Position numbers and translations under genes: made by a program. A DNA stretch of 64,000 bases from Naegleria gruberi (taxonomy: Eukaryota): NCBI GenBank assembly GCA_000004985.1, contig GG738860.1; one strand, 5' to 3'. Below, piece after piece: positions 18,010 to 64,000 of the stretch. The stretch's first letter is position 1; each line of letters begins with the position of its first letter. Under the pieces are notes generated by a model. The model was not told the origin of the DNA. It made no database searches and saw nothing but the letters and a program-made list of their open reading frames with translations.

Positions 18010-18651
18010 ATGCAAAAACAAATCACTACAACAGACGCCCAAATCCTTAATCTTTTATTTTCTTTGAAGAATGATATGGCCAATATTAAACAAGACAATA
18101 ACAAGTTGAAAGAAGATAACAAGAAATTGAAAGAAGATAACAAGAAACTCATCACAAGAGTTGAGGTTTTAGAAAAAGATAGCAAGAAGTTGAAAGAAGA
18201 TAACACGAAGTTGAAAGAGGTTAACAAGAAACTCATCACAAGAGTAGAGGAATTAGAAAAAGATCACAAAAAGTTGAAAGAAGAAAACAAGAAACTCTTC
18301 ACAAGAGTAGAGGAATTAGAAAAAAAGGACTTGTTGAAAGTAAGAGCAAATACTTTGAAGGAGTTGTTCAGATACTTGGCAACCAAAGTTGCATCTCTGG
18401 TTTCTCCAATAGTTGATGCCACAAAACCAAACTGGTTTAATGTAATGCAATCTTATTGTAGTTCCAACATTGTTATTGAACTCCCTATCAGCCTATCTGC
18501 ACTTCAAGAGTTATGGAGCACTTACAAGATCTTAAGGTTTCCTAGAAATTACATTTGTCAAAAGCAGCTAGATGATAATTTGGCCCTTGTTTCTGGTGAT
18601 GAAAAGAAAGCCGTTCAATGGTATTTGGATCAGACTCAAAACAATCACTAA
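18010..18651 (+). CDS. Coiled-coil protein with tandem heptad-based repeats, 213 aa.
   Basis: Repeated KKLKEDNKKLITRVEELEKD units. Real ATG. Confidence 0.5.
   Translation: MQKQITTTDAQILNLLFSLKNDMANIKQDNNKLKEDNKKLKEDNKKLITRVEVLEKDSKKLKEDNTKLKEVNKKLITRVEELEKDHKKLKEENKKLFTRVEELEKKDLLKVRANTLKELFRYLATKVASLVSPIVDATKPNWFNVMQSYCSSNIVIELPISLSALQELWSTYKILRFPRNYICQKQLDDNLALVSGDEKKAVQWYLDQTQNNH
18100..18340 (+). repeat. Imperfect coding tandem repeat (21/63-nt periodicity) inside the coiled-coil gene.
   Basis: Reiterated ttgaaagaagataacaagaaactcatcacaagagt(a/t)gagg… units. Confidence 0.5.
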
Positions 18652-18676: not shown

Positions 18677-19892
18677 CTAATAATAATATTGCTCATATTT
18701 TCTTCTGGTGAGAGAATAGATTCCACATTCATCATATTCATCCTGTGTTATCCAAACACTATCAAATGAACTCAAACTTGTCAAAATTGATCCACCAATA
18801 AATGGACAATTATATCTGTACTCAGTGTCACAGGTCTTTATGCCAATATTGAATGAATCTTTAGTGAGAGCTTTCAATTCATCCTCTATTCTTTCTTTAA
18901 ATCCAAAGAATTGACTAGTTCCTCCTGAAATAATAATATTAGAAAAGAGATTTTCTCTTGCATCTTGATCACACGCCAAAATTGCTTTGTGAATTAACTT
19001 GTCAATTCCATCACATTCTCTTCCAATCTTGTTTGGTTGAAATAATATTTCTGGTGCTATAAATCGTTCCATATCCACAACGATTTGATTTCCATCAGGT
19101 AACGTATAATTCATTGAAAATTCATTCTTGTCAATTGTAAAATCTCTCGGTCTCAGAACTCCTTCCATTAATTCCTTGTAATTATCAGCCACAAAACAAC
19201 ATTGCTCCTTCATTACTCTCAAATGTTCCAAATCACTCGATGATTCAGAGTAAAATCCCTTCTCAGACATTAAAACTTTTTGTAATTGTTTTGTAACATC
19301 ATCTCCTCCTAAATGAACCCTCTGAACTGCATTATAAAACGTATAGCCATTATAAATAGGTGTCACTGTTGTCACTTGATGACCAACATCCACAGCAACT
19401 CCTGTATAACTTCCACAACTGGAAGCAATTTTTAATTCACACTCAATTCATCCAAAATTTCCTAACCTACCTATACAAAATCAATCCACCAGAATTCTTT
19501 ACATAAAACTTTGGCACATGAAATGTCTCGAACATGATTCTCATCATTTGTTCGGAATTAAATTTCGGAGAAAGTGCTTGCTCGATCATTAGCACTGGAT
19601 GTTCAGAGGGATTAATCCTCAATTCATCCATCATTAGATAGGACCATACCCTCTCTAGATAATCCCAATTCTGTCCCACTCCATTCCTAATACATGGAGC
19701 AAGATTTAGAAAACATTGATTTTCGTGAGAAATTTGATTTCCCATGTAAAATTCTCTCGACTCGGCTCCGAACATTTCTGGTTTGATTTTCTGTTTGCCG
19801 ACCATTGAAGAAATGACAATGGATGGCTTTTCATCACTGGAAAATCCTGATTTGATAAGAGAGCTGCCGTTATCAATAATAATTGCTGTCAT
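18677..19892 (-). CDS. Actin-related protein (divergent Arp). Two exons: 19892-19471 and 19418-18677, about 387 aa.
   Basis: Actin-fold signatures IIDNGSSLIKSGF, EHPVLMIEQALSP, MFETFHVPKFYV, VDVGHQVTTVTPIYNGY, ISGGTSQFFGF. Exons joined via a GTAGGT donor and CCAG acceptor with a 52-nt intron. Confidence 0.8.
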
Positions 19893-19997: not shown

Positions 19998-21344
19998 TTA
20001 GTTGAAAGAAAGTGGTAGAAGGTCAGTATTTTCATAAATTTCGAATTGGATTTGAATTCTGCCAAGTGCGCTTTCTCTAATGACGAGAAGGGATTGTTCA
20101 TCGAGTGTCATTAAGGTTTGATTGGTTGAATCTATGAATGATATGTTGGAAATAACACAATTAGTTGGGAGATTCCACTGTTCCTTAATTTTTTGTTTGA
20201 AAATTGACATTGACATGAGCTCTTCTTTGGTAAACCCAAATAATCTTTGTTGGTTGTGAAAGTTTAGTTGGATTGGAATGATTTGAGGTCGATTCATTGG
20301 TGGTTGAGGCGTATGAATGATTGGATTCGGATAGGCCAGTTGTTGGTTTGGAATCATTGGACGAATATTGTTATTCGGAAGTTGTTGAGCCAATCCATTA
20401 AAAAGAAATGGAAAGTGAATGTTTGGAAGTTGAACATTCACCCAAGTAAATCCAGTAAATCCATTTCCATTTGAATTCATTGAGAAATGATTAATAGACG
20501 CATTATTGAATTGTTGTAAATGTGGTTGACCAATTAGGGATTGATTTTGGGGATGTCGCACCACTTGACCATTATTAAGCGGTACATGATTCATCACTCT
20601 TTCATTTTGATTACCATTTCTTATAGGATTCATGTTTGCTTGCTGATTAGTTCTAATAACATTTTCATTCTGTGGTTGATTTCTTGGTGGAGTATTATTC
20701 TGTCGTATCTGTCGTGGTGGAGTTACATTCATCCTATTTCGTGGTGGACTATTAGTCTGTATCTGTCGTGGCTGTTGTGGTGCTTGTTGTTGTACATTTT
20801 GATTCCAACCTTCTTGTTGACCTATTGGTGGTTGTTGTTGACCATTCATTTGAGCCTCCTCATTTTCAGAGCCATTCTCTTGTCCATTTTCAATTCCAAA
20901 TCTTTCCTGTAACTCCCTCGCTTTTCTGTTAATTTTCAAATAGAAATTCTCCATCAAGTATGGAACATAATGTTGCCTGCAATGTTTCCAACTTTTTTCC
21001 TGAATATTTTCAATGAACTTCAACAGCAAATTATCAATGAATGGAATGAGCTTGTTCTCGGTAATTAAACGAGGAAGAGAAGGTTCTGAGAAGACTCTAC
21101 GATTCTCCTCAGCAATGAAACATTTTACAATGTGAATTTTCTGGTACAGAGTAATGCGATGGTCGCAGTGGGTATCGTTATAGTGACAGGATGGACATCG
21201 GCTCGAGGAGAGATGAGGTAGGTTGGCTGGTGTGATGTACTCCTCATCTATGCTGTTACTACTTTCCGTATCACTTTCATCATCAATAATAACAGGTTCG
21301 GCAAATGACATTTTTTTTGACGTTTGAAAACTCGAATTTCCCAT
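19998..21344 (-). CDS. Member A of a tandem lineage-specific family (C-x2-C-x7-C-x-H motif, AEEN box, conserved C-terminal domain), about 448 aa from the first ATG.
   Basis: RCPSCHYNDTHCDHR…FIAEENRRVFSEPSLP. Long N/Q/P-rich linker. The C-terminal block is shared with B and C. Confidence 0.6.
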   Translation of the reverse strand: MGNSSFQTSKKMSFAEPVIIDDESDTESSNSIDEEYITPANLPHLSSSRCPSCHYNDTHCDHRITLYQKIHIVKCFIAEENRRVFSEPSLPRLITENKLIPFIDNLLLKFIENIQEKSWKHCRQHYVPYLMENFYLKINRKARELQERFGIENGQENGSENEEAQMNGQQQPPIGQQEGWNQNVQQQAPQQPRQIQTNSPPRNRMNVTPPRQIRQNNTPPRNQPQNENVIRTNQQANMNPIRNGNQNERVMNHVPLNNGQVVRHPQNQSLIGQPHLQQFNNASINHFSMNSNGNGFTGFTWVNVQLPNIHFPFLFNGLAQQLPNNNIRPMIPNQQLAYPNPIIHTPQPPMNRPQIIPIQLNFHNQQRLFGFTKEELMSMSIFKQKIKEQWNLPTNCVISNISFIDSTNQTLMTLDEQSLLVIRESALGRIQIQFEIYENTDLLPLSFN

Positions 21345-21398
21345 CGTAATTCCAACTTGAAGAACCAAATCAAATACATTGATTTATATTGAGTAAAT

Positions 21399-22520
21399 TT
21401 ACATATAAATATGATGATTAGTAACAGGCAACTCATCCTTTTGAATTCCATCAACTTTGAAAATCAAACAAATGTCATCTTTGAACCATTCATCTCTGGC
21501 AATTGCTAATGCTTTCTTATTGGCCAAGCAGAAATCTCTAGTCTTTGGATTGAGGATTAGAATTTCAGAGATGGTAAAATTATTAGAAACTGGCAACTCT
21601 TGCTTCAAGGCAATTACAAAATCTCTAACACTATCCAAATCAGATTTTGTCAATTTTGCAATGTAATTAACTTGTTTCAACTCAATTTGAACAAGTTTTT
21701 GATCTTCATTTGCTGATCTGACAGATCTTGTGGAGAAGGCGTCAGGAAGCTCAGATTCTGCAATCATTGAACCAATTTGATTACCATGATTTGGGACATT
21801 GACATTTGGCATAACTGGAGCATTTTGGGTTGGGTTGGAATCGTGAGGTTGGAGAATTACAACTTCATCTTCATCTTCCTCTTCAATGATGATTGGAGTT
21901 TCAAAAGTATTTCTTTGAACAGTTCCAAAAAAGGAAGCACATTCGAAATATTGTTGTTGATGAACAATAGAAGCATTGGAAGAATTCATTCGATGTGGAG
22001 GTTTAGTAATCTTGGATGGACTAACCTTCTCCTCCTTCGCTTGTTGTTGATGATTTGACTGATGACTTTGATGGTTGGCCATCACAGAACCATTGGTTGA
22101 AAAGCTTCCAAACAAATCGACAAGTGTTGGAGCATAGAATGTTGGTTTTACCTCCGCAGCACCATGAATAACACGATGAAAATCATCTGGCAATTCTGCT
22201 GTGAATCCATTCTTTGCAAAACGATGAAGTTTCTCATAGAATTCACCCAGTTTCATCTTGTATTCTGCTCTTTTTCTTGAATAATTACGATCTTCGAGAT
22301 GATGAGCAAACTCTTGAACACTAGCAAGAATGAAATCATCAAAAATTTCTCTCTTATTGGCTGGAACAGGAATGTCAGCAATATTTCGATTCTCCTCTGC
22401 ACAAAACATGCGAGGAAGACAACACTTTTGATGGAGAGAAATGCCATGAGTGCACACGATGCCATTGCGTTGACAGATTGGGCACCTGTTGGAATCTGTC
22501 TTTTTTACTCCACTGGACAT
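21399..22520 (-). CDS. Member B of the same tandem family, about 374 aa from the first ATG.
   Basis: RCPICQRNGIVCTHG…FCAEENRNIADIPVP…RNYS. C-terminal KLTKSDLDSVRDFVIALKQEL block. Confidence 0.6.
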   Translation of the reverse strand: MSSGVKKTDSNRCPICQRNGIVCTHGISLHQKCCLPRMFCAEENRNIADIPVPANKREIFDDFILASVQEFAHHLEDRNYSRKRAEYKMKLGEFYEKLHRFAKNGFTAELPDDFHRVIHGAAEVKPTFYAPTLVDLFGSFSTNGSVMANHQSHQSNHQQQAKEEKVSPSKITKPPHRMNSSNASIVHQQQYFECASFFGTVQRNTFETPIIIEEEDEDEVVILQPHDSNPTQNAPVMPNVNVPNHGNQIGSMIAESELPDAFSTRSVRSANEDQKLVQIELKQVNYIAKLTKSDLDSVRDFVIALKQELPVSNNFTISEILILNPKTRDFCLANKKALAIARDEWFKDDICLIFKVDGIQKDELPVTNHHIYM

Positions 22521-22725
22521 AAATATTTTTTTTAATTTAAATTTTTGACCAGATTTATTAAAAAACAAACTTTCTTGTTTTATGGACAACTACGAGTAGC
22601 GAAGCTATAAAGGTTCCTCTGGATAGAATTGGATTTTGTTTATTCTTGTAGGTTTGAATTGGGAATATTTCTAATAGTGTTCTTATTGTTAGAAATCTTT
22701 CGAATAGTATTTCGTTTTCGAAAGA

Positions 22726-23574
22726 TTATTCGGCTTCAACTTTAATTTCCATACATTTAACCTTTCCAAAGAAATCTTCTCTAAATGGCTTTAATGTTTC
22801 TGATCCATAAACTGAACATAACTTGTCGGTATATGCATTCTTAATTCTAATTCTTGTAAATTTTGCATTTTCGTCCAACAATAGATGACGTTTCATGGCA
22901 ATCATCAAATTTTGTAAACTGGCAAAGTCTGTTTCAGTCATCTTTACCAGATTTCTTCTTCCTTGATTTGTTAATGATATTTGGCATGATTGTTCAATTG
23001 GTTTTTTGACTGGTGACGCTTTTTTGATTAATGAATTAGTGACAGTTTTGTGTTGCTTTGAAATTCCATTGCTTGTTGGTCCAGTGACATCTGGTCTGAT
23101 GTTTGGATTTACTGGATTGAGAGGAATTCTTGAAGTATATGATGTGCCAGATGTTGAAGTTCTTCTTTGATCATTGACAGGTTGACCTCTTCCTTGATTT
23201 GTGTTAGCATCAGAAATAACATTCATTTTCTTGGCCTTTACCATTACTACATTATAAAACTCATCGATCAACCTTTTCTTGTAAAGATCTTTAGCTCCAG
23301 AATAATCTCTGTTTCCAACTCTTCTTGTAAAGTTTTCCAATTGTTGGATGATGAATTCATCGAATTCTGCTGAACGATCGGTAGGGATGGGATGAGAGTA
23401 GATTCTGGCATTCTCTGAAGCTATGAGTGGAGATGGTAGGTTGGTTCTTTCAGAGAGTGCTTTGGTGTGTGGACAAGTGACGTTCTTTTTGTGACAGACA
23501 GGACAACGGTTGGATTTGAGAGTCAATTTGGCAAAGTGTTCATCTTTGATAAGAGGAAGATTTGCTTGTTGCAT
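22726..23574 (-). CDS. Member C of the same tandem family, about 282 aa from the first ATG.
   Basis: RCPVCHKKNVTCPHT…LIASENARIYSHPIP…RDYSG. C-terminal KMTETDFASLQNLMIAMKRHL block. Confidence 0.6.
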   Translation of the reverse strand: MQQANLPLIKDEHFAKLTLKSNRCPVCHKKNVTCPHTKALSERTNLPSPLIASENARIYSHPIPTDRSAEFDEFIIQQLENFTRRVGNRDYSGAKDLYKKRLIDEFYNVVMVKAKKMNVISDANTNQGRGQPVNDQRRTSTSGTSYTSRIPLNPVNPNIRPDVTGPTSNGISKQHKTVTNSLIKKASPVKKPIEQSCQISLTNQGRRNLVKMTETDFASLQNLMIAMKRHLLLDENAKFTRIRIKNAYTDKLCSVYGSETLKPFREDFFGKVKCMEIKVEAE

Positions 23575-24132: not shown

Positions 24133-25458
24133 ATGTCGCAACCAAATGCTGAGCACAATTCTTGTGTGGAAGAAGCTTCTTCCGAGAGTGTTGATCATCA
24201 TCACGAGCACGGAAAGGAGGGATTGAAAGCTCCTACTCCTGCCGATTTAACAGTCTCCTCGGAATGGTTTGAATTTATTTTACAAAAGAAGGGTTTATTA
24301 AATCATAATGATGAAAATCATGTGTTGAATGTAGAGATGAAACCTTTGGCTGAGAATAGAGGACTTTGTGCAGTAATGACTCGATTGAGTGTTACTTATT
24401 CTGATCCTGATTGTAAATTACCAAAATCCTTTGTGTTGAAATCAATTCCAAATACTGAAGAAGCTAGAGCTCAATCAAGTACACGTGGACAATTCAGAGA
24501 AGGATTGTTTTATGAAAGTGACTTGTTGGAAAAGTTAGATGCTTCTGAAAATCATGTATTATATGCTCATGGATGTGAAAAAACTGGTGAATATATTATT
24601 TTGATGAATGATTTGAAAAATAGGTAGGTTACTGAGATATTCCACATTCGGACTGACAATATTAGTGATCATGTGGTTGGCGTGAATTTTGTGTTTGGAA
24701 ATCAAGTATGGGGAGTTCCTGAATTCAATGTCAAACTTCCAGAGCCAATTCCTGTTTTGGAACAAATGTACAAGGCATGTGCAAGATTGAATGCCAAGTT
24801 TTGGAAGGATCCATCATTATTGAACCATACCTTTTTGAAATCTTCTGCTTTCTACAGAGGAGAAAGACAAGTTGGATGGGAAACTGGTATGAATACTGCT
24901 AGAAATGCCTGGAAAGTTGCCAAGGAAAGAAATTCAAAGAGTGAATTATTCAAATTCTCTGATAAGTTGATTGAAATTATTGACAAGTCATTAGAGTTGG
25001 CAAGTTGGGAAAATATGCAAAAGGCAATTCTTGAAGAACCATTCACTTTATGTCATGGAGATTTCCATGCCAGTAACATGTTTGTGAATGTTGATACTTT
25101 GGAAGTATCCATGTTTGATTGGTCTGAAGTTGGAGTGTGGAATCCAGTTACTGACTTGGCTCAAACTCTCATCTCTGATGTTAAACCTGAAATTGTTGCA
25201 CAAAATTCAAAACATTTAGTCAAAGTTTATTATGATGAATTGGCCAATTGTGGAGCTGATTTGACTGGATTCTCATTTGAAGATTGTTGGAATGTTTTCT
25301 GTAAGAATGGGCCTGAGAGATGGATTTGGCTATTTGTTGTCTTGTCATCCATGTCTGTTATTCCTGATAAGGCCATCAAATTCTGGCATGATAATTTATT
25401 ATCATTTATTGAATCACATGGCGATTATCCAATTTACAACCTTAAGAGTATTGTTTAG
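24133..25458 (+). CDS. Kinase-like phosphotransferase (APH/choline-kinase fold, EcKL/DUF1679-like). Two exons: 24133-24623 and 24666-25458.
   Basis: LCHGDFHASNMF (HGDxxxxN catalytic motif) and DWSEVG (DFG-like). Exons joined through a GTAGGT donor and TATTAG acceptor with a 42-nt intron. Confidence 0.6.
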
Positions 25459-25638: not shown

Positions 25639-25710
25639 TCCCGTGTAGTCCAATGGCTAGGATACCTGGCTTTCACCCAGGAGGTCCGGGTTCAATTCCC
25701 GGCATGGGAG
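25639..25710 (+). tRNA. tRNA-Glu (anticodon UUC), 72 nt.
   Basis: TCCCGTGTAGTCCAATGGCTAGGATACCTGGCTTTCACCCAGGAGGTCCGGGTTCAATTCCCGGCATGGGAG. A 7-bp acceptor stem pairs with the 3' end. The anticodon loop is CT-TTC-AC. A GTTCAATTCC T-loop is present. T-rich tracts follow downstream. Confidence 0.85.
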
Positions 25711-26534: not shown

Positions 26535-26630
26535 NNNNNNNNNNNNNNNNNNNNNNNNNNNNNNNNNNNNNNNNNNNNNNNNNNNNNNNNNNNNNNNNNN
26601 NNNNNNNNNNNNNNNNNNNNNNNNNNNNNN
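26535..26630. other. Assembly gap (96 N).
   Basis: Run of N. ORF-track entries that span it are artefacts. Confidence 0.95.
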
Positions 26631-28700: not shown

Positions 28701-31700
28701 ATGGGACGAGTCACAACTATTAAGAGTGCCAACATTGTTGGTTTTTCTCTTGCTATTGTGCTGATAATGATGGCCATGGTAGTGATGGTTAAGGGTACAT
28801 CATTAAATCCATACTCTGTCAAGATTAGCACATTTGCTGGTGGAAATGGTGAATTCAAAGATCCACAAAAACTTGCTAGATTATCAAATGGTGATATTCT
28901 GGTCACTGATGCTTTAGGTCATGCTATTAAGAAGATTAACGGAACTGGTGTGATTACTACAATTGCTGGTACTGGTGTTGCTGGTTTTGCTGGTGATAAT
29001 GGACCAGCCATCAATGCTCAAGTTAACAAACCATACGGTATTGCTGTTTCAAGCAATGATGAAATTTATTTCGCTGACTCTATGAATCATAGAATTAGAA
29101 AAATTGACATCACAGGTAATATTACAACAGTGGTTGGTACTGGCGCTAACACTTTCAGTGGTGATGGTGGTTTGGCCACTGATTGTACCATGAATACTCC
29201 AATGGATGTATCATTGAGTGCTTCAGGAGAATTATACATTGCTGATATGTATAATTATAGAATTAGAAAGGTTTTGACCAATGGCACTATTGTCACATTT
29301 GCTGGTAATGGTCAATCAGGTCATATAGGTGATGGTGGTTTGGCAACAAATGCTGCTATGGCTCTTGCTTATGGTGTTAAAGTTTTTTCAAATGGAGAGG
29401 TTTACATTTCAGATAGTTTCAATTTCAAAGTTAGAAAGGTTGATGTTAATGGTAATATTACAACTGTTGCTGGTTCTGGTGCTGGACCATTCAATGGTGA
29501 CAATGTTTTGGCCACTGCTGCCAATTTGAATCATCCAACTGATGTTCTTCGTTTGGATACAGGTGAATTGATAATTGCAGACACTGACAATTACAGAATT
29601 AGACTTGTTATGCCAAATGGTACAATTATTACAACTGCTGGTAATGGTACTGCTTCATTCTCTGATGGTGAAATTGCTGAAGAAAATGGATTATCTCTTC
29701 CAACTGGTTTGTTAATGATTCAAAACGGATTATTAATTGCTGATGCTGGTAATAAGAGAATTAGATTATTGCAAAGTAGAATTTATTCATGCTATGGAAA
29801 GTCATATCTCGATTCAAGTGTTTGTAGTGGTCAAGGTCAATGTGTTGGTAATAATATGTGTCAATGCAATGCTGGATTTGAAGGCCCAACTTGTCTTCCA
29901 TCTAGCTATTATATTACAACTGTTGCAAGAGGTTTGAAGGATCCACAAAAGATTTCCAAATTGTCAAATGGCGACCTTATTGTTTCTGATACAGGCGATC
30001 ACTCTATTAAGAAGATAAGTTACTCAACCGGTGTTGTTACCAGAATTGCCGGTACTGGAGTTGCAGGTTTTTCAGGTGATGGTGGTTTAGCAACTCTGGC
30101 TCAATTCAATAAGCCATATGGTATTGCAGTTACAATTAATGATGAAATTTACATTGCTGACTCTTTAAATCATAGAATTAGATTTATTGATGTTAATGGC
30201 AATATTTCAACTGTTGTTGGTACTTCAATTGGATTCTCTGGTGATGGTGGTTTGGCTACAGCAGCTAAATTGAATGCTCCCATGGATGTTTCATTGAGCG
30301 CTTCAGGTGATTTATATATTGCTGATAGAGATAATTATAGAATTAGAAAGGTTTTGGCCAATGGCACTATTGTCACATTTGCTGGTAATGGTCAATCAGG
30401 TCATATTGGAGATGGTGGTCAAGCAATAAGTGCTGCCTTATCTCAAGCTTATGGTGTTAGAGTTGTTAATGATGAAGTTTACATTTCAGATAGTAATAAT
30501 TTCAAAGTTAGAAAGATTGATGTTAGTGGAGTTATTACAACAATTGCTGGTACTGGTGCTGGACCATTCAATGGTGACAATGTTTTGGCCACTGCTGCCA
30601 ATTTGAATCATCCAACTGATGTTGCATTCCTCTCAAATGGTGAAATGTTGATTGCTGATACTGACAATAACAGAGTCAGAATGGTTTTAACCAATGGTAC
30701 TATTGTTTCAATTGCCGGTAATGGTACTGCCTCTTTCTCTGATGGTAGAATTGCCACCTCAAGAGGATTATCTCTTCCAACTGGTATTTTGGTTGTTTCA
30801 GATGATGAAATTTATATTGCTGATGCTAAAAATGGTAGAATTAGATTACTTTCCTCTAAATTCTTTACTTGTAATGGTATTGATCAAACTGAGACCTCAG
30901 TTTGTAGTGGACATGGTTCATGTGTTTCAAAGGATAACTGTGTTTGTAAACAAGGCTGGTCTGGTGCAAACTGTGACACAACAATTCAAGCTCCACAATG
31001 TGCCAATCAAACATTGGGTATTAATATTCCATGTTCTGGACATGGTACTTGTGCAAATGGTGTTTGTACATGTTCCCCTGATTTCTATGGATCATACTGT
31101 TCACTCTCTGTTATGATAAGTTCTAAAGGATATACTCATCCAATGATGGGTGTTTTCATGATGGCTATTATTAATTCATTGACCCTTGATGGTATTTCAA
31201 ATGTTGATTACAGCTGGTCTCAAATTTCTGGACCAACCATTTCCAATTTGGCATCCATGACCAATTTGAATACTCCAACATTAATAATTCCAGGAAAATT
31301 CAATGCCCTTTCATTCAATAATGGTCTCGTTTCTGGTAGTACATATGGTTTTGCATTGACTGCCAAGATTACCACTGGTGTCATCACAACTACTGTCACA
31401 ACTTCAACCACCGTTTTTGTTCAACAAAATCCTACATTGACTTTCACTTTACATGATGACAGCACCAATCAAGCTGTTACTTCAGGTGTTGCTGGTACAA
31501 CTGTTTTCAGAATTAATATTACAAGAAACTCAAATCCTTACTCTGATTCTAGTTTCAAATATGGATTTGGTTTTTCTGATTCTAGCAGTATTACAATTCT
31601 AACTGATATGAGTGAAGGACCAGCAACATTTAAATTGCCATTCATTTCAGGTCAATCAAGTGTTGATATCTACGTTAGATGTGAAGGAGATCACTCAGAC

Positions 31701-32801
31701 AGTGTTCAAAAATTGACAACTATCTCATTGACAAATCCAGTATCTAATTTGCCTCCAAGCCAAGCCATTTCAACCATTCAAAATCTCTTTACTTCAAATT
31801 CATCTGTTGCTGATTTGTTGGGTGCTGCTTCACTTTTGAACACCATTACAACAACCGATTCTACACAAATCGCAAATAAGCAATCTATCAGAAATTCAAT
31901 CATTACAACAATTTCTAAAGCAATTTCCTCTGGAGATCTTGGCTCTGCAATTAAGGCCCTCTCTACAGTAACATCTGTCACCTCAGAAATCACCAAAACT
32001 TCTGCTGACAATACACTCGATACTATGATTAGTGGAACCACCAATCCACAATTCTCCAGAAATGAAGTTGATGCACTCGTTAATATTGCTTCAAATATTG
32101 TTACTGTTTCAAGCAGTAGTAAGACACTTACATTTGGTAATGCAATGGGATCAAAGCTTGTTGCACACATGTCCCTGGGAGATTTAGTTAGTAGTAGTGG
32201 AGCCAATTTTGGAATTGCTGTTTCCAAGGGCGTGTCTTCATTGTCTCTTTCAAATGTATCGATCGCTTTATCACCAAATTCAAGATCTTTGGCTGGTATT
32301 GAATGTTACTTCATTGTTGATATTAAGGACACACTTGGCTTCTTACAATGTTTGGCAAACAGCAACTGGGTAGCCAGAACAGGACCAAAATACGCACCAG
32401 GTACTGAAAGAGCAATTGGTGGAGTCACATATTCTGTTGGTTCATTGATTTATGACATGACACCAATGTACGACAATGGAACCATTGTTTCTGGTAATGT
32501 TACAAGTTTGAATGATATTCAAATTACAATTCCTTACACAGGATCATTGACACCAGTTTGTGGTATTCATAATAGTGATGACACTTACTCTGTCAATACC
32601 AAAGCTACACTTATCAAAGGAAGTGGATCAGTAACTTGTAAAACAAAGGTCTTGAGAGGAAATGTTTTGCTTTTGGCAACCCAAACTACAACTGATGCCA
32701 GTGTTACACCTAAGAAATCTACAGTTCTTGGCGGAGCTGAAACTAACAAGTTGAGTGCTTTCTTAATGTGTCTATTGTTACTTGCAATGTTACTTTTCTA
32801 A
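28701..32801 (+). CDS. Cell-surface protein with two NHL beta-propeller units and three EGF-like modules, 1366 aa. Putative signal peptide and C-terminal hydrophobic (GPI-like) tail.
   Basis: Single exon. Repeated NHL-type blades (…GDGG.A…LN.P.GV…D..N.RIR…). Cys-rich EGF patterns (CSGQGQCVGNNMCQCNAGFEGPTC and others). S/T-rich C-terminal half. The hydrophobic end is LSAFLMCLLLLAMLLF. Confidence 0.8.
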   Translation: MGRVTTIKSANIVGFSLAIVLIMMAMVVMVKGTSLNPYSVKISTFAGGNGEFKDPQKLARLSNGDILVTDALGHAIKKINGTGVITTIAGTGVAGFAGDNGPAINAQVNKPYGIAVSSNDEIYFADSMNHRIRKIDITGNITTVVGTGANTFSGDGGLATDCTMNTPMDVSLSASGELYIADMYNYRIRKVLTNGTIVTFAGNGQSGHIGDGGLATNAAMALAYGVKVFSNGEVYISDSFNFKVRKVDVNGNITTVAGSGAGPFNGDNVLATAANLNHPTDVLRLDTGELIIADTDNYRIRLVMPNGTIITTAGNGTASFSDGEIAEENGLSLPTGLLMIQNGLLIADAGNKRIRLLQSRIYSCYGKSYLDSSVCSGQGQCVGNNMCQCNAGFEGPTCLPSSYYITTVARGLKDPQKISKLSNGDLIVSDTGDHSIKKISYSTGVVTRIAGTGVAGFSGDGGLATLAQFNKPYGIAVTINDEIYIADSLNHRIRFIDVNGNISTVVGTSIGFSGDGGLATAAKLNAPMDVSLSASGDLYIADRDNYRIRKVLANGTIVTFAGNGQSGHIGDGGQAISAALSQAYGVRVVNDEVYISDSNNFKVRKIDVSGVITTIAGTGAGPFNGDNVLATAANLNHPTDVAFLSNGEMLIADTDNNRVRMVLTNGTIVSIAGNGTASFSDGRIATSRGLSLPTGILVVSDDEIYIADAKNGRIRLLSSKFFTCNGIDQTETSVCSGHGSCVSKDNCVCKQGWSGANCDTTIQAPQCANQTLGINIPCSGHGTCANGVCTCSPDFYGSYCSLSVMISSKGYTHPMMGVFMMAIINSLTLDGISNVDYSWSQISGPTISNLASMTNLNTPTLIIPGKFNALSFNNGLVSGSTYGFALTAKITTGVITTTVTTSTTVFVQQNPTLTFTLHDDSTNQAVTSGVAGTTVFRINITRNSNPYSDSSFKYGFGFSDSSSITILTDMSEGPATFKLPFISGQSSVDIYVRCEGDHSDSVQKLTTISLTNPVSNLPPSQAISTIQNLFTSNSSVADLLGAASLLNTITTTDSTQIANKQSIRNSIITTISKAISSGDLGSAIKALSTVTSVTSEITKTSADNTLDTMISGTTNPQFSRNEVDALVNIASNIVTVSSSSKTLTFGNAMGSKLVAHMSLGDLVSSSGANFGIAVSKGVSSLSLSNVSIALSPNSRSLAGIECYFIVDIKDTLGFLQCLANSNWVARTGPKYAPGTERAIGGVTYSVGSLIYDMTPMYDNGTIVSGNVTSLNDIQITIPYTGSLTPVCGIHNSDDTYSVNTKATLIKGSGSVTCKTKVLRGNVLLLATQTTTDASVTPKKSTVLGGAETNKLSAFLMCLLLLAMLLF
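28830..30990 (+). repeat. Intragenic tandem duplication (two units of about 1080 bp, each NHL propeller plus EGF) with tracts of 100% nucleotide identity.
   Basis: The same 66-nt string (gctggaccattcaatggtgacaatgttttggccactgctgccaatttgaatcatccaactgatgtt) and a roughly 50-nt string (ccaatggcactattgtcacatttgctggtaatggtcaatcaggtcatat) occur in both units, offset by about 1080 nt. Confidence 0.6.
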
Positions 32802-40576: not shown

Positions 40577-40648
40577 CTCCCATGCCGGGAATTGAACCCG
40601 GACCTCCTGGGTGAAAGCCAGGTATCCTAGCCATTGGACTACACGGGA
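40577..40648 (-). tRNA. tRNA-Glu (anticodon UUC), second copy, identical to the one at 25639-25710.
   Basis: The plus strand here is the exact reverse complement of the 72-nt tRNA at 25639-25710. It is flanked by a T-rich tract on its 3' side. Confidence 0.85.
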
Positions 40649-42550: not shown

Positions 42551-42600
42551 NNNNNNNNNNNNNNNNNNNNNNNNNNNNNNNNNNNNNNNNNNNNNNNNNN
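42551..42600. other. Assembly gap (50 N) inside or abutting the retroelement.
   Basis: Run of N. Confidence 0.95.
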
Positions 42601-60982: not shown

Positions 60983-61032
60983 NNNNNNNNNNNNNNNNNN
61001 NNNNNNNNNNNNNNNNNNNNNNNNNNNNNNNN
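60983..61032. other. Assembly gap (50 N).
   Basis: Run of N. Confidence 0.95.
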
Positions 61033-61347: not shown

Positions 61348-64000
61348 NNNNNNNNNNNNNNNNNNNNNNNNNNNNNNNNNNNNNNNNNNNNNNNNNNNNN
61401 NNNNNNNNNNNNNNNNNNNNNNNNNNNNNNNNNNNNNNNNNNNNNNNNNNNNNNNNNNNNNNNNNNNNNNNNNNNNNNNNNNNNNNNNNNNNNNNNNNNN
61501 NNNNNNNNNNNNNNNNNNNNNNNNNNNNNNNNNNNNNNNNNNNNNNNNNNNNNNNNNNNNNNNNNNNNNNNNNNNNNNNNNNNNNNNNNNNNNNNNNNNN
61601 NNNNNNNNNNNNNNNNNNNNNNNNNNNNNNNNNNNNNNNNNNNNNNNNNNNNNNNNNNNNNNNNNNNNNNNNNNNNNNNNNNNNNNNNNNNNNNNNNNNN
61701 NNNNNNNNNNNNNNNNNNNNNNNNNNNNNNNNNNNNNNNNNNNNNNNNNNNNNNNNNNNNNNNNNNNNNNNNNNNNNNNNNNNNNNNNNNNNNNNNNNNN
61801 NNNNNNNNNNNNNNNNNNNNNNNNNNNNNNNNNNNNNNNNNNNNNNNNNNNNNNNNNNNNNNNNNNNNNNNNNNNNNNNNNNNNNNNNNNNNNNNNNNNN
61901 NNNNNNNNNNNNNNNNNNNNNNNNNNNNNNNNNNNNNNNNNNNNNNNNNNNNNNNNNNNNNNNNNNNNNNNNNNNNNNNNNNNNNNNNNNNNNNNNNNNN
62001 NNNNNNNNNNNNNNNNNNNNNNNNNNNNNNNNNNNNNNNNNNNNNNNNNNNNNNNNNNNNNNNNNNNNNNNNNNNNNNNNNNNNNNNNNNNNNNNNNNNN
62101 NNNNNNNNNNNNNNNNNNNNNNNNNNNNNNNNNNNNNNNNNNNNNNNNNNNNNNNNNNNNNNNNNNNNNNNNNNNNNNNNNNNNNNNNNNNNNNNNNNNN
62201 NNNNNNNNNNNNNNNNNNNNNNNNNNNNNNNNNNNNNNNNNNNNNNNNNNNNNNNNNNNNNNNNNNNNNNNNNNNNNNNNNNNNNNNNNNNNNNNNNNNN
62301 NNNNNNNNNNNNNNNNNNNNNNNNNNNNNNNNNNNNNNNNNNNNNNNNNNNNNNNNNNNNNNNNNNNNNNNNNNNNNNNNNNNNNNNNNNNNNNNNNNNN
62401 NNNNNNNNNNNNNNNNNNNNNNNNNNNNNNNNNNNNNNNNNNNNNNNNNNNNNNNNNNNNNNNNNNNNNNNNNNNNNNNNNNNNNNNNNNNNNNNNNNNN
62501 NNNNNNNNNNNNNNNNNNNNNNNNNNNNNNNNNNNNNNNNNNNNNNNNNNNNNNNNNNNNNNNNNNNNNNNNNNNNNNNNNNNNNNNNNNNNNNNNNNNN
62601 NNNNNNNNNNNNNNNNNNNNNNNNNNNNNNNNNNNNNNNNNNNNNNNNNNNNNNNNNNNNNNNNNNNNNNNNNNNNNNNNNNNNNNNNNNNNNNNNNNNN
62701 NNNNNNNNNNNNNNNNNNNNNNNNNNNNNNNNNNNNNNNNNNNNNNNNNNNNNNNNNNNNNNNNNNNNNNNNNNNNNNNNNNNNNNNNNNNNNNNNNNNN
62801 NNNNNNNNNNNNNNNNNNNNNNNNNNNNNNNNNNNNNNNNNNNNNNNNNNNNNNNNNNNNNNNNNNNNNNNNNNNNNNNNNNNNNNNNNNNNNNNNNNNN
62901 NNNNNNNNNNNNNNNNNNNNNNNNNNNNNNNNNNNNNNNNNNNNNNNNNNNNNNNNNNNNNNNNNNNNNNNNNNNNNNNNNNNNNNNNNNNNNNNNNNNN
63001 NNNNNNNNNNNNNNNNNNNNNNNNNNNNNNNNNNNNNNNNNNNNNNNNNNNNNNNNNNNNNNNNNNNNNNNNNNNNNNNNNNNNNNNNNNNNNNNNNNNN
63101 NNNNNNNNNNNNNNNNNNNNNNNNNNNNNNNNNNNNNNNNNNNNNNNNNNNNNNNNNNNNNNNNNNNNNNNNNNNNNNNNNNNNNNNNNNNNNNNNNNNN
63201 NNNNNNNNNNNNNNNNNNNNNNNNNNNNNNNNNNNNNNNNNNNNNNNNNNNNNNNNNNNNNNNNNNNNNNNNNNNNNNNNNNNNNNNNNNNNNNNNNNNN
63301 NNNNNNNNNNNNNNNNNNNNNNNNNNNNNNNNNNNNNNNNNNNNNNNNNNNNNNNNNNNNNNNNNNNNNNNNNNNNNNNNNNNNNNNNNNNNNNNNNNNN
63401 NNNNNNNNNNNNNNNNNNNNNNNNNNNNNNNNNNNNNNNNNNNNNNNNNNNNNNNNNNNNNNNNNNNNNNNNNNNNNNNNNNNNNNNNNNNNNNNNNNNN
63501 NNNNNNNNNNNNNNNNNNNNNNNNNNNNNNNNNNNNNNNNNNNNNNNNNNNNNNNNNNNNNNNNNNNNNNNNNNNNNNNNNNNNNNNNNNNNNNNNNNNN
63601 NNNNNNNNNNNNNNNNNNNNNNNNNNNNNNNNNNNNNNNNNNNNNNNNNNNNNNNNNNNNNNNNNNNNNNNNNNNNNNNNNNNNNNNNNNNNNNNNNNNN
63701 NNNNNNNNNNNNNNNNNNNNNNNNNNNNNNNNNNNNNNNNNNNNNNNNNNNNNNNNNNNNNNNNNNNNNNNNNNNNNNNNNNNNNNNNNNNNNNNNNNNN
63801 NNNNNNNNNNNNNNNNNNNNNNNNNNNNNNNNNNNNNNNNNNNNNNNNNNNNNNNNNNNNNNNNNNNNNNNNNNNNNNNNNNNNNNNNNNNNNNNNNNNN
63901 NNNNNNNNNNNNNNNNNNNNNNNNNNNNNNNNNNNNNNNNNNNNNNNNNNNNNNNNNNNNNNNNNNNNNNNNNNNNNNNNNNNNNNNNNNNNNNNNNNNN
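61348..64000. other. Terminal assembly gap (2653 N).
   Basis: Run of N to the end of the window. Confidence 0.95.

What the first reader, a model, noticed from the sequence alone, without database searches (positions are those of the whole stretch)
19998..23574. Tandem array of three paralogous genes encoding an apparently undescribed C-x2-C-x6-7-C-x-H / 'AEEN-box' protein family
Three consecutive minus-strand genes, head to tail with about 30-150 bp spacers, share a short metal-binding-like motif: RCPSCHYNDTHCDHR, RCPICQRNGIVCTHG and RCPVCHKKNVTCPHT. About 15 residues later comes a conserved (F/L)(I/C)AEEN(R/A) box, followed by an RNYS/RDYSG motif, and then a conserved C-terminal block, K(L/M)T(K/E)xD(L/F)xS…(V/M)IA(L/M)K. 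The linkers between these blocks are highly variable Q/N/P-rich low-complexity sequence. I do not recognise the motif spacing as any standard zinc-finger class (CCHC knuckle, C2H2, THAP, GATA and so on). The arrangement looks like a recently expanded lineage-specific family, possibly nucleic-acid binding.
Basis: seen in the sequence. Interest (0 to 1): 0.65.

Follow-up and report, generated by a model that had tools for sequence, protein, structure and literature searches.

The report
Naegleria-only zinc-motif plus ubiquitin-like-fold gene family
Three neighbouring genes of the amoeba Naegleria gruberi belong to a six-gene family found only in this species, combining an unclassified, probably zinc-binding helical domain with a ubiquitin/PB1-like domain; they are real genes, but orphan families like this are common in this genus and their function is unknown.

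Summary
The window is Naegleria gruberi DNA. The three minus-strand genes are the annotated but uncharacterised NAEGRDRAFT_48002, _65926 and _65927.

- **N-terminal part.** The ~100-residue N-terminal parts are clearly homologous (z = 18-30 against shuffles). The C-terminal ~85 residues are homologous more weakly, and the linkers not at all.
- **C-terminal block.** It is a beta-grasp domain whose best fold matches are PB1 and ubiquitin-like domains. It lacks any PB1 sequence signature.
- **Family size.** An exhaustive HMMER search of 1.84 billion representative proteins found only three more members, all N. gruberi genes on other scaffolds. Across all six, only S-x2-C-P-x-C-x(5-11)-C-x-H, one Asn and a few hydrophobic core residues are invariant.
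- **Age.** Paralogs are 21-33% identical in the N-terminal part, so the expansion is not recent.

My best reading is a zinc-stabilised recognition domain, a disordered linker and a beta-grasp interaction domain, acting as adaptors or regulators. Function is inferred, not shown. Interest is modest.

The parts
19998..21311 (-). g1 coding sequence (NAEGRDRAFT_48002, 437 aa, single exon). An alternative upstream ATG lies at 21344.
   Evidence: ORF. Identical to P0002. A-rich context before the ATG at 21311.
20913..21224 (-). g1 N-terminal domain (residues 30-133). The Cys/His motif CPSCHYNDTHCDH is at 21159-21197.
20283..20912 (-). g1 linker: N/Q/P-rich low-complexity sequence with an imperfect 27-nt tandem repeat at 20685-20771.
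   Evidence: A variant copy of this linker, P0004, differs by indels.
20031..20282 (-). g1 C-terminal beta-grasp domain (residues 344-427).
   Evidence: The fold is inferred by homology to g3.
21399..22520 (-). g2 coding sequence (NAEGRDRAFT_65926, 373 aa, single exon).
22209..22502 (-). g2 N-terminal domain (residues 7-104). The Cys/His motif CPICQRNGIVCTH is at 22446-22484.
   Evidence: AlphaFold2 model of this segment: pLDDT 88.7, pTM 0.80. Coordinates.
21699..22208 (-). g2 variable linker.
21447..21698 (-). g2 C-terminal beta-grasp domain (residues 275-358).
22726..23574 (-). g3 coding sequence (NAEGRDRAFT_65927, 282 aa, single exon).
   Evidence: A strain variant is 98.4% identical at the DNA level, with pN/pS = 0.33.
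23227..23532 (-). g3 N-terminal domain (residues 15-116). The Cys/His motif CPVCHKKNVTCPH is at 23467-23505.
22990..23226 (-). g3 variable linker (T/N/S/P-rich, basic).
   Evidence: (pLDDT < 50)
22729..22989 (-). g3 C-terminal beta-grasp domain (residues 196-282).
   Evidence: AlphaFold2 gives strand-strand-helix-strand-strand-helix-strand topology at pLDDT mostly 64-85. Foldseek best matches are PB1 and ubiquitin-like domains.

Best explanation
The three genes are members of a six-gene, Naegleria gruberi-restricted family of modular intracellular proteins. Each protein has three parts.

1. An N-terminal domain of about 100 residues. An invariant S-x2-C-P-x-C-x(5-11)-C-x-H knuckle most likely holds one structural zinc ion (Cys3His). 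It clasps two short helices onto a long helical hairpin.
2. A fast-evolving, disordered, low-complexity linker of 40-200 residues.
3. A C-terminal beta-grasp domain of PB1/ubiquitin-like fold.

The most likely way of working is as adaptors or regulators. The zinc-stabilised helical domain would recognise a target, either a protein or a nucleic acid. The beta-grasp domain would mediate protein-protein contacts, such as pairing among the paralogs or docking on a partner.

Shown here: homology, domain limits, the predicted folds, the restricted distribution and purifying selection. Inferred only: zinc binding, the role of each domain and any cellular function.
For: - **Homology and domain limits.** The N- and C-terminal modules are significantly similar and the linkers are not.
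- **Family of six with the same order of parts.**
- **Invariant residues.** Across 21-33% identical N-terminal modules, the invariant residues are S, C, P, C, C, H, L and N plus five hydrophobic or aromatic core residues.
- **N-terminal fold.** AlphaFold2 on 7 sequences gives pLDDT 88.7 and pTM 0.80. CPxC starts helix 1, CxH starts helix 2, and three more helices follow.
- **C-terminal fold.** The model has beta-grasp topology at pLDDT mostly 64-85. Foldseek best matches are PB1 domains of NBR1, p62, PKCiota and Par6, and ubiquitin-like domains of USP11/15, Rsa4 and RING1B, with target-normalised TM-scores of 0.6-0.8 for the PB1 domains and probability about 1.0.
- **Disordered linker.** pLDDT is below 50 across it. 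A variant copy of the g1 linker differs by indels, and it contains a tandem repeat.
- **Real, constrained genes.**
  - The ORFs run 282-437 codons in 35% G+C DNA.
  - A strain variant keeps the g3 frame with pN/pS = 0.33.
  - That variant also keeps g2 immediately downstream of g3.
- **Charge.** The N-terminal domain is basic in 5 of 6 members, pI 8.9-9.5.
Against: - Zinc binding is inferred from residue invariance only. I could not read model coordinates, so the geometry of the four ligands is unchecked.
- The AlphaFold2 alignment is shallow: 7 rows, of which 6 are distinct. Confidence for helical bundles can be overestimated.
- The beta-grasp domain has no PB1 sequence signature, so PB1-style front-to-back pairing is only an analogy:
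  - no Pfam PB1 match;
  - hhalign probability 0.3 against three PB1 sequences I recalled from memory;
  - no acidic OPCA motif and no conserved strand-1 lysine in alignment A8.
- There are no expression, localisation or interaction data, and no paper mentions these loci.
Confidence: 0.5

Rival explanations
1. They are lineage-specific DNA- or RNA-binding regulators. The zinc-containing N-terminal domain would bind nucleic acid, the Q/N/S/T-rich linker would act as an activation or condensation region, and the C-terminal PB1-like domain would oligomerise. This is the same order of parts as in plant ARF and NIN-like transcription factors.
For: The N-terminal domain is basic in 5 of 6 members. 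It carries an invariant Cys3His motif. g1 has a Q/N/P-rich linker. The C-terminal fold is PB1-like. The comparison with ARF and NIN-like factors rests on established knowledge of those families, not on a test here.
Against: - The N-terminal domain resembles no solved DNA- or RNA-binding fold.
- Basic clusters that could serve as nuclear localisation signals are few and not conserved.
- The linker composition differs widely among members.
- The g2 N-terminal domain is near neutral, pI 7.8.
Confidence: 0.28
2. They are components of the ubiquitin/proteasome or autophagy machinery. The C-terminal ubiquitin-like domain would dock on ubiquitin-like-domain receptors, and the zinc motif would act like the small zinc fingers of autophagy receptors such as NDP52, p62 and NBR1.
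For: Fold matches include ubiquitin-like domains of USP11/15, ubiquilin, FAF1 and SUMO, and the PB1 domains of NBR1 and p62. The best, but non-significant, PDB sequence match of the zinc motif is NDP52 zinc finger 1, CPICKADDICDH, E = 6.6. [quoted passage not shown]
Against: E = 6.6 is a chance-level score. With the six-member profile the NDP52 match disappears. There is no UBA, UIM or LIR-type module and no Pfam match. Beta-grasp fold matches are generic.
Confidence: 0.1
3. The CPxC pair is a redox-active dithiol at the start of a helix, as in thioredoxin-type active sites, rather than a pair of zinc ligands.
For: CPxC is the classic redox motif, and it sits at the start of a predicted helix.
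Against: There is no thioredoxin fold; the domain is almost all helical. The third Cys and the His, 5-11 residues downstream, are equally invariant, which fits a four-ligand metal site better.
Confidence: 0.05
4. The ORFs are not real genes, or they resemble each other only through low-complexity sequence or foreign (viral or transposon) origin.
For: No homologs outside N. gruberi. No literature.
Against: - The similarity lies in the non-repetitive modules, not in the linkers.
- The folds are predicted with confidence.
- The reading frame is kept between strains, with pN/pS = 0.33 and an in-frame indel.
- G+C content matches the flanks.
- The neighbours are ordinary eukaryotic genes.
- There is no match in viral contigs.
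Confidence: 0.02

Closest known systems
PB1 domains (p62/SQSTM1, NBR1, aPKC, Par6, plant ARF, Aux/IAA and NIN-like proteins)
   Same: The C-terminal domain has the same beta-grasp topology, and PB1 domains are its best Foldseek matches (E = 4e-4 to 1e-2, target-normalised TM-score 0.6-0.8). As in ARF and NIN-like factors it sits at the C-terminus, after a low-complexity region. As in p62 and NBR1 it shares the protein with a small zinc module.
   Different: There is no Pfam PB1 match and no profile-profile similarity. The acidic OPCA motif and the conserved strand-1 lysine are absent (alignment A8). The domain order is the reverse of p62 and NBR1.
Ubiquitin-like domains (USP11/15 DUSP-UBL, Rsa4 UBL, RING1B C-terminal RAWUL domain, SUMO)
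   Same: The beta-grasp fold, with Foldseek probability about 1.0. RING1B and the PCGF proteins also combine an N-terminal zinc domain with a C-terminal ubiquitin-like domain.
   Different: The N-terminal domain has only four invariant metal ligands, not the eight of a cross-braced RING. There is no sequence similarity.
NDP52/CALCOCO2 zinc finger 1 (unconventional C-x2-C-x5-C-x-H finger)
   Same: Nearly the same short ligand pattern, including CPxC and CxH.
   Different: The score is at chance level (E = 6.6) and is lost with the wider profile. NDP52 zinc finger 1 is a small, largely unstructured finger. Here the motif is part of a ~100-residue helical domain.
SWIM zinc finger (C-x-C-xn-C-x-H)
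   Same: The order of ligands is Cys, Cys, Cys, His, with a terminal C-x-H.
   Different: The first pair is C-x2-C, not C-x-C. There is no Pfam SWIM match at E ≤ 10. The surroundings are helical, not strand-strand-helix.
Generic four-helix bundles (SPACA6/IZUMO1 bundle, cytomegalovirus IE1 core)

Membership tests
PB1 domain (Pfam PF00564) | Beta-grasp fold with strand-strand-helix-strand-strand-helix-strand topology | tested here: met
   (topology, pLDDT mostly 64-85). (PB1 domains are the best matches).
PB1 domain (Pfam PF00564) | Match to the family's sequence profile | tested here: not met
   No PB1 match at E ≤ 1 to 10 for any of the members. hhalign probability 0.3 against three PB1 sequences recalled from memory.
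PB1 domain (Pfam PF00564) | Acidic OPCA motif (type A) and/or conserved lysine on strand 1 (type B) | tested here: not met
   Inspection of alignment A8. The strand 3-strand 4-helix 2 stretch is not acidic, and the strand-1 position varies (S/E/N/K/H/T). There is no residue-level structural alignment, so the register is approximate.
Ubiquitin-like beta-grasp superfamily | Beta-grasp fold with significant structural matches to ubiquitin-like domains | tested here: met
   USP11/15, Rsa4, RING1B C-terminal domain, SUMO and ubiquilin, probability 0.97-1.0.
SWIM zinc finger (Pfam PF04434) | C-x-C-xn-C-x-H signature and a profile match | tested here: not met
   The first pair is C-x2-C in all six members. 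No Pfam match.
CCHC zinc knuckle, THAP (C2CH) and RING | C-x2-C-x4-H-x4-C; C-x2-4-C-x35-50-C-x2-H; eight cross-braced ligands | tested here: not met
   The spacing is C-x2-C-x5-11-C-x-H, with only four invariant ligands. No Pfam match.
NDP52-type unconventional zinc finger 1 | Significant sequence similarity to the C-x2-C-x5-C-x-H finger | tested here: inconclusive
   E = 6.6 with the three-member profile. Absent with the six-member profile.
Structural zinc site (Cys3His) | Four ligands in tetrahedral geometry, with bound zinc | not testable with these tools
   All four residues are invariant and lie at the starts of two adjacent helices.

The most novel reading that the evidence does not exclude
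The N-terminal module is a previously unclassified zinc-binding domain: a Cys3His clasp on a helical bundle, with no relative in Pfam or the PDB. Joined to a divergent PB1-like domain, it would define a Naegleria-specific set of six hetero-oligomerising regulators, for example of the amoeba-flagellate-cyst transitions.
Probability: 0.3. Interest if true: 0.5.

Novelty: new variant of a known kind. Interest (0 to 1): 0.33.

Why it matters
The finding adds one uncharacterised domain family to the large pool of Naegleria genes of unknown function, and it gives that family a testable domain plan: a zinc-clasped helical domain, a linker and a beta-grasp domain. If the N-terminal domain proves to be a new zinc-binding fold, it would interest people who classify protein structures. 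If the six paralogs pair through their beta-grasp domains, they could be a small lineage-specific regulatory network in an organism studied for de novo basal-body assembly and as the harmless relative of N. fowleri.

Against that, species-specific genes of unknown function number in the hundreds per species in this genus (PMC9928731). The mere existence of an orphan family is therefore not surprising.

Tried and rejected
**Family and structure searches that found nothing**
- Pfam on the three proteins and on all ten family sequences: only chance-level matches. NCBIfam: nothing.
- PDB sequence search with the full-length, N-terminal and C-terminal profiles: only chance-level matches, namely NDP52 zinc finger 1 (E = 6.6), the Rad50 zinc hook (E = 0.36) and a septin coiled coil.
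- hhalign of the C-terminal alignment against three PB1 sequences recalled from memory: probability 0.3.

**Searches for more homologs**
- The word-indexed homolog search found only the query genes and one allelic fragment. It failed even to return known members, so it adds little.
- Scans of JGI metagenome contigs with g2 and g3, and of IMG/VR viral contigs with g2: no relatives.

- The AlphaFold-database fold library was not available.
I replaced it with a fragment alignment, A5.

**Literature and other checks**
- Literature search on all six locus tags: nothing.
- Rfam and tRNA scans found no RNA gene inside the three genes.

**Readings rejected**
- Low-complexity artefact.
- Viral or transposon origin.
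- Recent duplication.
Full report
**Where the window comes from.** The middle gene is 100% identical to the Naegleria gruberi protein NAEGRDRAFT_65926, from a 536,960-bp contig. The two flanking genes are NAEGRDRAFT_48002 and NAEGRDRAFT_65927. All three are annotated only as predicted or hypothetical proteins. The window has 33-36% G+C throughout and no compositional break at the three genes. The neighbours are ordinary eukaryotic genes: an actin-family gene split by a short intron, an ecdysteroid-kinase-like gene, an NHL/EGF-repeat protein and a tRNA-Glu.

**The observation.** Three head-to-tail minus-strand ORFs exist as described. With ATG starts, which have A-rich contexts and agree with the deposited models, the coding sequences are:

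| Gene | Window coordinates | Length | Locus tag |
|---|---|---|---|
| g1 | 19998-21311 | 437 aa | NAEGRDRAFT_48002 |
| g2 | 21399-22520 | 373 aa | NAEGRDRAFT_65926 |
| g3 | 22726-23574 | 282 aa | NAEGRDRAFT_65927 |

- All quoted motifs are present. The metal-like motif is C-x2-C-x6-C-x-H in all three genes.
- The N-terminal ~100 residues are similar far beyond chance: z = 18-30 against 1000 shuffles and tblastn E = 1e-8 to 1e-15.
- The C-terminal ~85-100 residues are similar more weakly: z = 12.8, 5.3 and 2.4.
- The linkers are not similar, z < 1.
- The motif pattern occurs five times in the six-frame translation of the whole window, and three of those are these genes.

**Size and spread of the family.** I built a profile from g3 plus the N- and C-terminal fragments of g1 and g2 (alignment A5). 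I scored it with HMMER against all 1.84 billion representative proteins.

- Only five proteins reached E ≤ 0.001: g3, g2 and three others (P0006, P0007, P0008).
- The three new ones are N. gruberi proteins NAEGRDRAFT_52014, _49967 and _67446, on three other scaffolds. They have the same order of parts.
- g1 did not appear as its own row in that list, although its fragments were in the query profile.
- An ENA metagenome assembly (ERZ929261, run ERR1078381) carries variants of four members that cluster with them at ≥90% protein identity (98% for g3), evidently from a closely related strain.
- Nothing was found in JGI metagenome contigs or in IMG/VR viral contigs.
- No member matches Pfam or NCBIfam.

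One caveat applies. The most distant paralog scored only E = 2.4e-4, so equally diverged orthologs in N. fowleri or N. lovaniensis could have been missed. "Not detected" is the accurate wording.

**What is conserved.**
- Across the six members the N-terminal modules are 21-33% identical.
- The invariant positions are S-x2-C-P-x-C-x(5-11)-C-x-H-x3-L, one Asn (the N of "AEEN"), and Ile, Phe, Tyr, Leu and Tyr further on.
- "AEEN" itself, and "RNYS", are features of the tandem trio or of g2 and g3 only.
- The trio groups together in 63% of bootstrap trees. A local tandem origin is plausible, but the duplication is old or the genes evolve fast. It is not recent.

**N-terminal domain.**
- With three sequences, AlphaFold2 gave only about 50 pLDDT here.
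- With the seven-row alignment A7 it gave mean pLDDT 88.7 and pTM 0.80, with all five models at or above 86.7.
- The model has these elements, in order:
  - a short strand bridge that includes the invariant Ser;
  - CPxC opening helix 1;
  - C-x-H opening helix 2;
  - a second bridge strand;
  - a short helix formed by the "AEEN" box;
  - two long helices that carry the invariant hydrophobic and aromatic residues.
- "RNYS" lies in the loop between the two long helices.
- Sequence profiles hit nothing significant in the PDB. The NDP52 zinc finger 1 resemblance (CPICKADDICDH, E = 6.6) is a short-motif coincidence that vanishes with the wider profile.
- A Cys3His structural zinc site is the most economical reading of four invariant ligands at the starts of two adjacent helices. 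This is inference only, because I could not inspect the coordinates.
- The domain is basic in five of six members, pI 8.9-9.5.

**C-terminal domain.**
- In the g3 model, residues 196-281 form a beta-grasp at pLDDT mostly 64-85.
- The best Foldseek matches are PB1 domains: Arabidopsis and human NBR1, the PKCiota-Par6 pair, a PB1 complex (4mjs), Cdc24 and p40phox/p67phox. E-values run from 4e-4 to 1e-2.
- Ubiquitin-like domains also match: USP11/15, Rsa4, the RING1B C-terminal domain, SUMO and ubiquilin. Target-normalised TM-scores reach 0.79.
- By sequence it is not a PB1 domain:
  - no Pfam match;
  - neither the acidic OPCA motif nor the strand-1 lysine is conserved.
- I therefore place it in the beta-grasp fold class, PB1-like in shape, without claiming PB1 membership.

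**Linker.**
- It is 40-200 residues long and unalignable between members.
- AlphaFold2 models it at pLDDT below 50.
- Composition varies: N/Q/P-rich in g1, T/P/S/K-rich in NAEGRDRAFT_52014 and S/D-rich in NAEGRDRAFT_67446.
- g1 contains a degenerate 27-nt repeat.
- A 205-aa fragment on an unplaced 1151-bp contig (P0004) is 81% identical to the g1 linker and differs by several indels. It is probably the other haplotype.

**Are they real genes?**
- The strain variant of g3 is 98.4% identical in the coding sequence, against 89.6% (including gaps) in the upstream flank.
- It has 5 synonymous and 6 non-synonymous differences (pN/pS = 0.33) and one in-frame codon insertion.
- The start of g2 follows downstream in the same arrangement.
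- The numbers are small, but they point to constraint.
- No paper mentions any of the six loci.

**How it most likely works.** The shown facts are a conserved folded N-terminal domain with a probable zinc clasp, a disordered linker and a beta-grasp interaction-type domain. From established knowledge, PB1 and ubiquitin-like beta-grasp domains serve chiefly as protein-protein interaction or oligomerisation modules. Small zinc-stabilised domains serve as recognition modules for proteins or nucleic acids. My confidence in each reading is as follows.

| Reading | Confidence |
|---|---|
| Adaptor or regulator (recognition at one end, partner docking or paralog pairing at the other) | about 0.5 |
| Nucleic-acid-binding regulators with an ARF/NIN-like layout | about 0.28 |
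| Ubiquitin or autophagy role | about 0.1 |
| Redox-active CPxC | about 0.05 |
| Artefact | about 0.02 |

None of the functional steps is demonstrated.

**Novelty and score.** The proteins are already in public databases, but they are unnamed and unstudied. The C-terminal domain is a divergent example of a known fold. The N-terminal domain is unclassified by every search I could run. Species-specific genes of unknown function are very common in Naegleria: hundreds per species, with the core genome only 25% of the genus pangenome (PMC9928731). The finding is therefore sound but of modest surprise. I rate it a new variant of a known kind (a zinc module plus a beta-grasp domain in a modular protein) and give it interest 0.33.

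Noticed in passing
window 22694-22727: A perfect 11-nt inverted repeat, AATCTTTCGAA / TTCGAAAGATT, with a 12-nt loop. It overlaps the g3 stop codon and lies in the 3' flank of g3. It is identical in the strain variant L001. It may be a 3'-end or regulatory hairpin.
   Followed up: partly
window 20685-20771: A degenerate 27-nt tandem repeat (3.1 copies, 70% matches) inside the g1 linker, encoding the repeated TPPR(N/Q) stretch. P0004 (NAEGRDRAFT_55023, on an 1151-bp contig) is an 81% identical copy of this linker with indels, probably the alternative haplotype.
   Followed up: partly
window 18677-19892 (-): An actin-family gene in two exons (18677-19393 and 19467-19892), split by an intron of about 73 bp. 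Pfam Actin E = 4e-54 and 7e-32.
   Followed up: partly
window 24133-25458 (+): An ecdysteroid-kinase-like / APH-family gene (Pfam EcKL, E = 9e-13). It appears to be in two exons and is transcribed divergently from g3.
   Followed up: partly
window 25639-25710 (+) and 40577-40648 (-): Two tRNA-Glu (anticodon TTC) genes about 15 kb apart, on opposite strands.
   Followed up: no
window 18010-18651 (+): A coiled-coil protein with repeated KLKEDNKKL...RVEELEKD units, giving only weak Taxilin/KASH coiled-coil matches. The antisense strand carries a spurious low-complexity ORF.
   Followed up: no
window 28701-32801 (+): A large (1366 aa) NHL-repeat and EGF-like, teneurin-type protein (Pfam NHL, E = 2e-53).
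   Followed up: no
window 26535-26630, 42551-42600, 60983-61032, 61348-64000: Runs of N. These are assembly gaps, and the last 2.65 kb of the window is all N.
   Followed up: yes
L001-L004 (ENA ERZ929261, run ERR1078381, PRJEB11402): A sample labelled as a metagenome contains a Naegleria strain very close to N. gruberi NEG-M, about 96% identical over L001. It carries variants of at least four family members.
   Followed up: partly
The word-indexed homolog search did not return g2 or the three dispersed paralogs, even though they were rows of the query alignment. Its negative results are therefore weak evidence.
   Followed up: no
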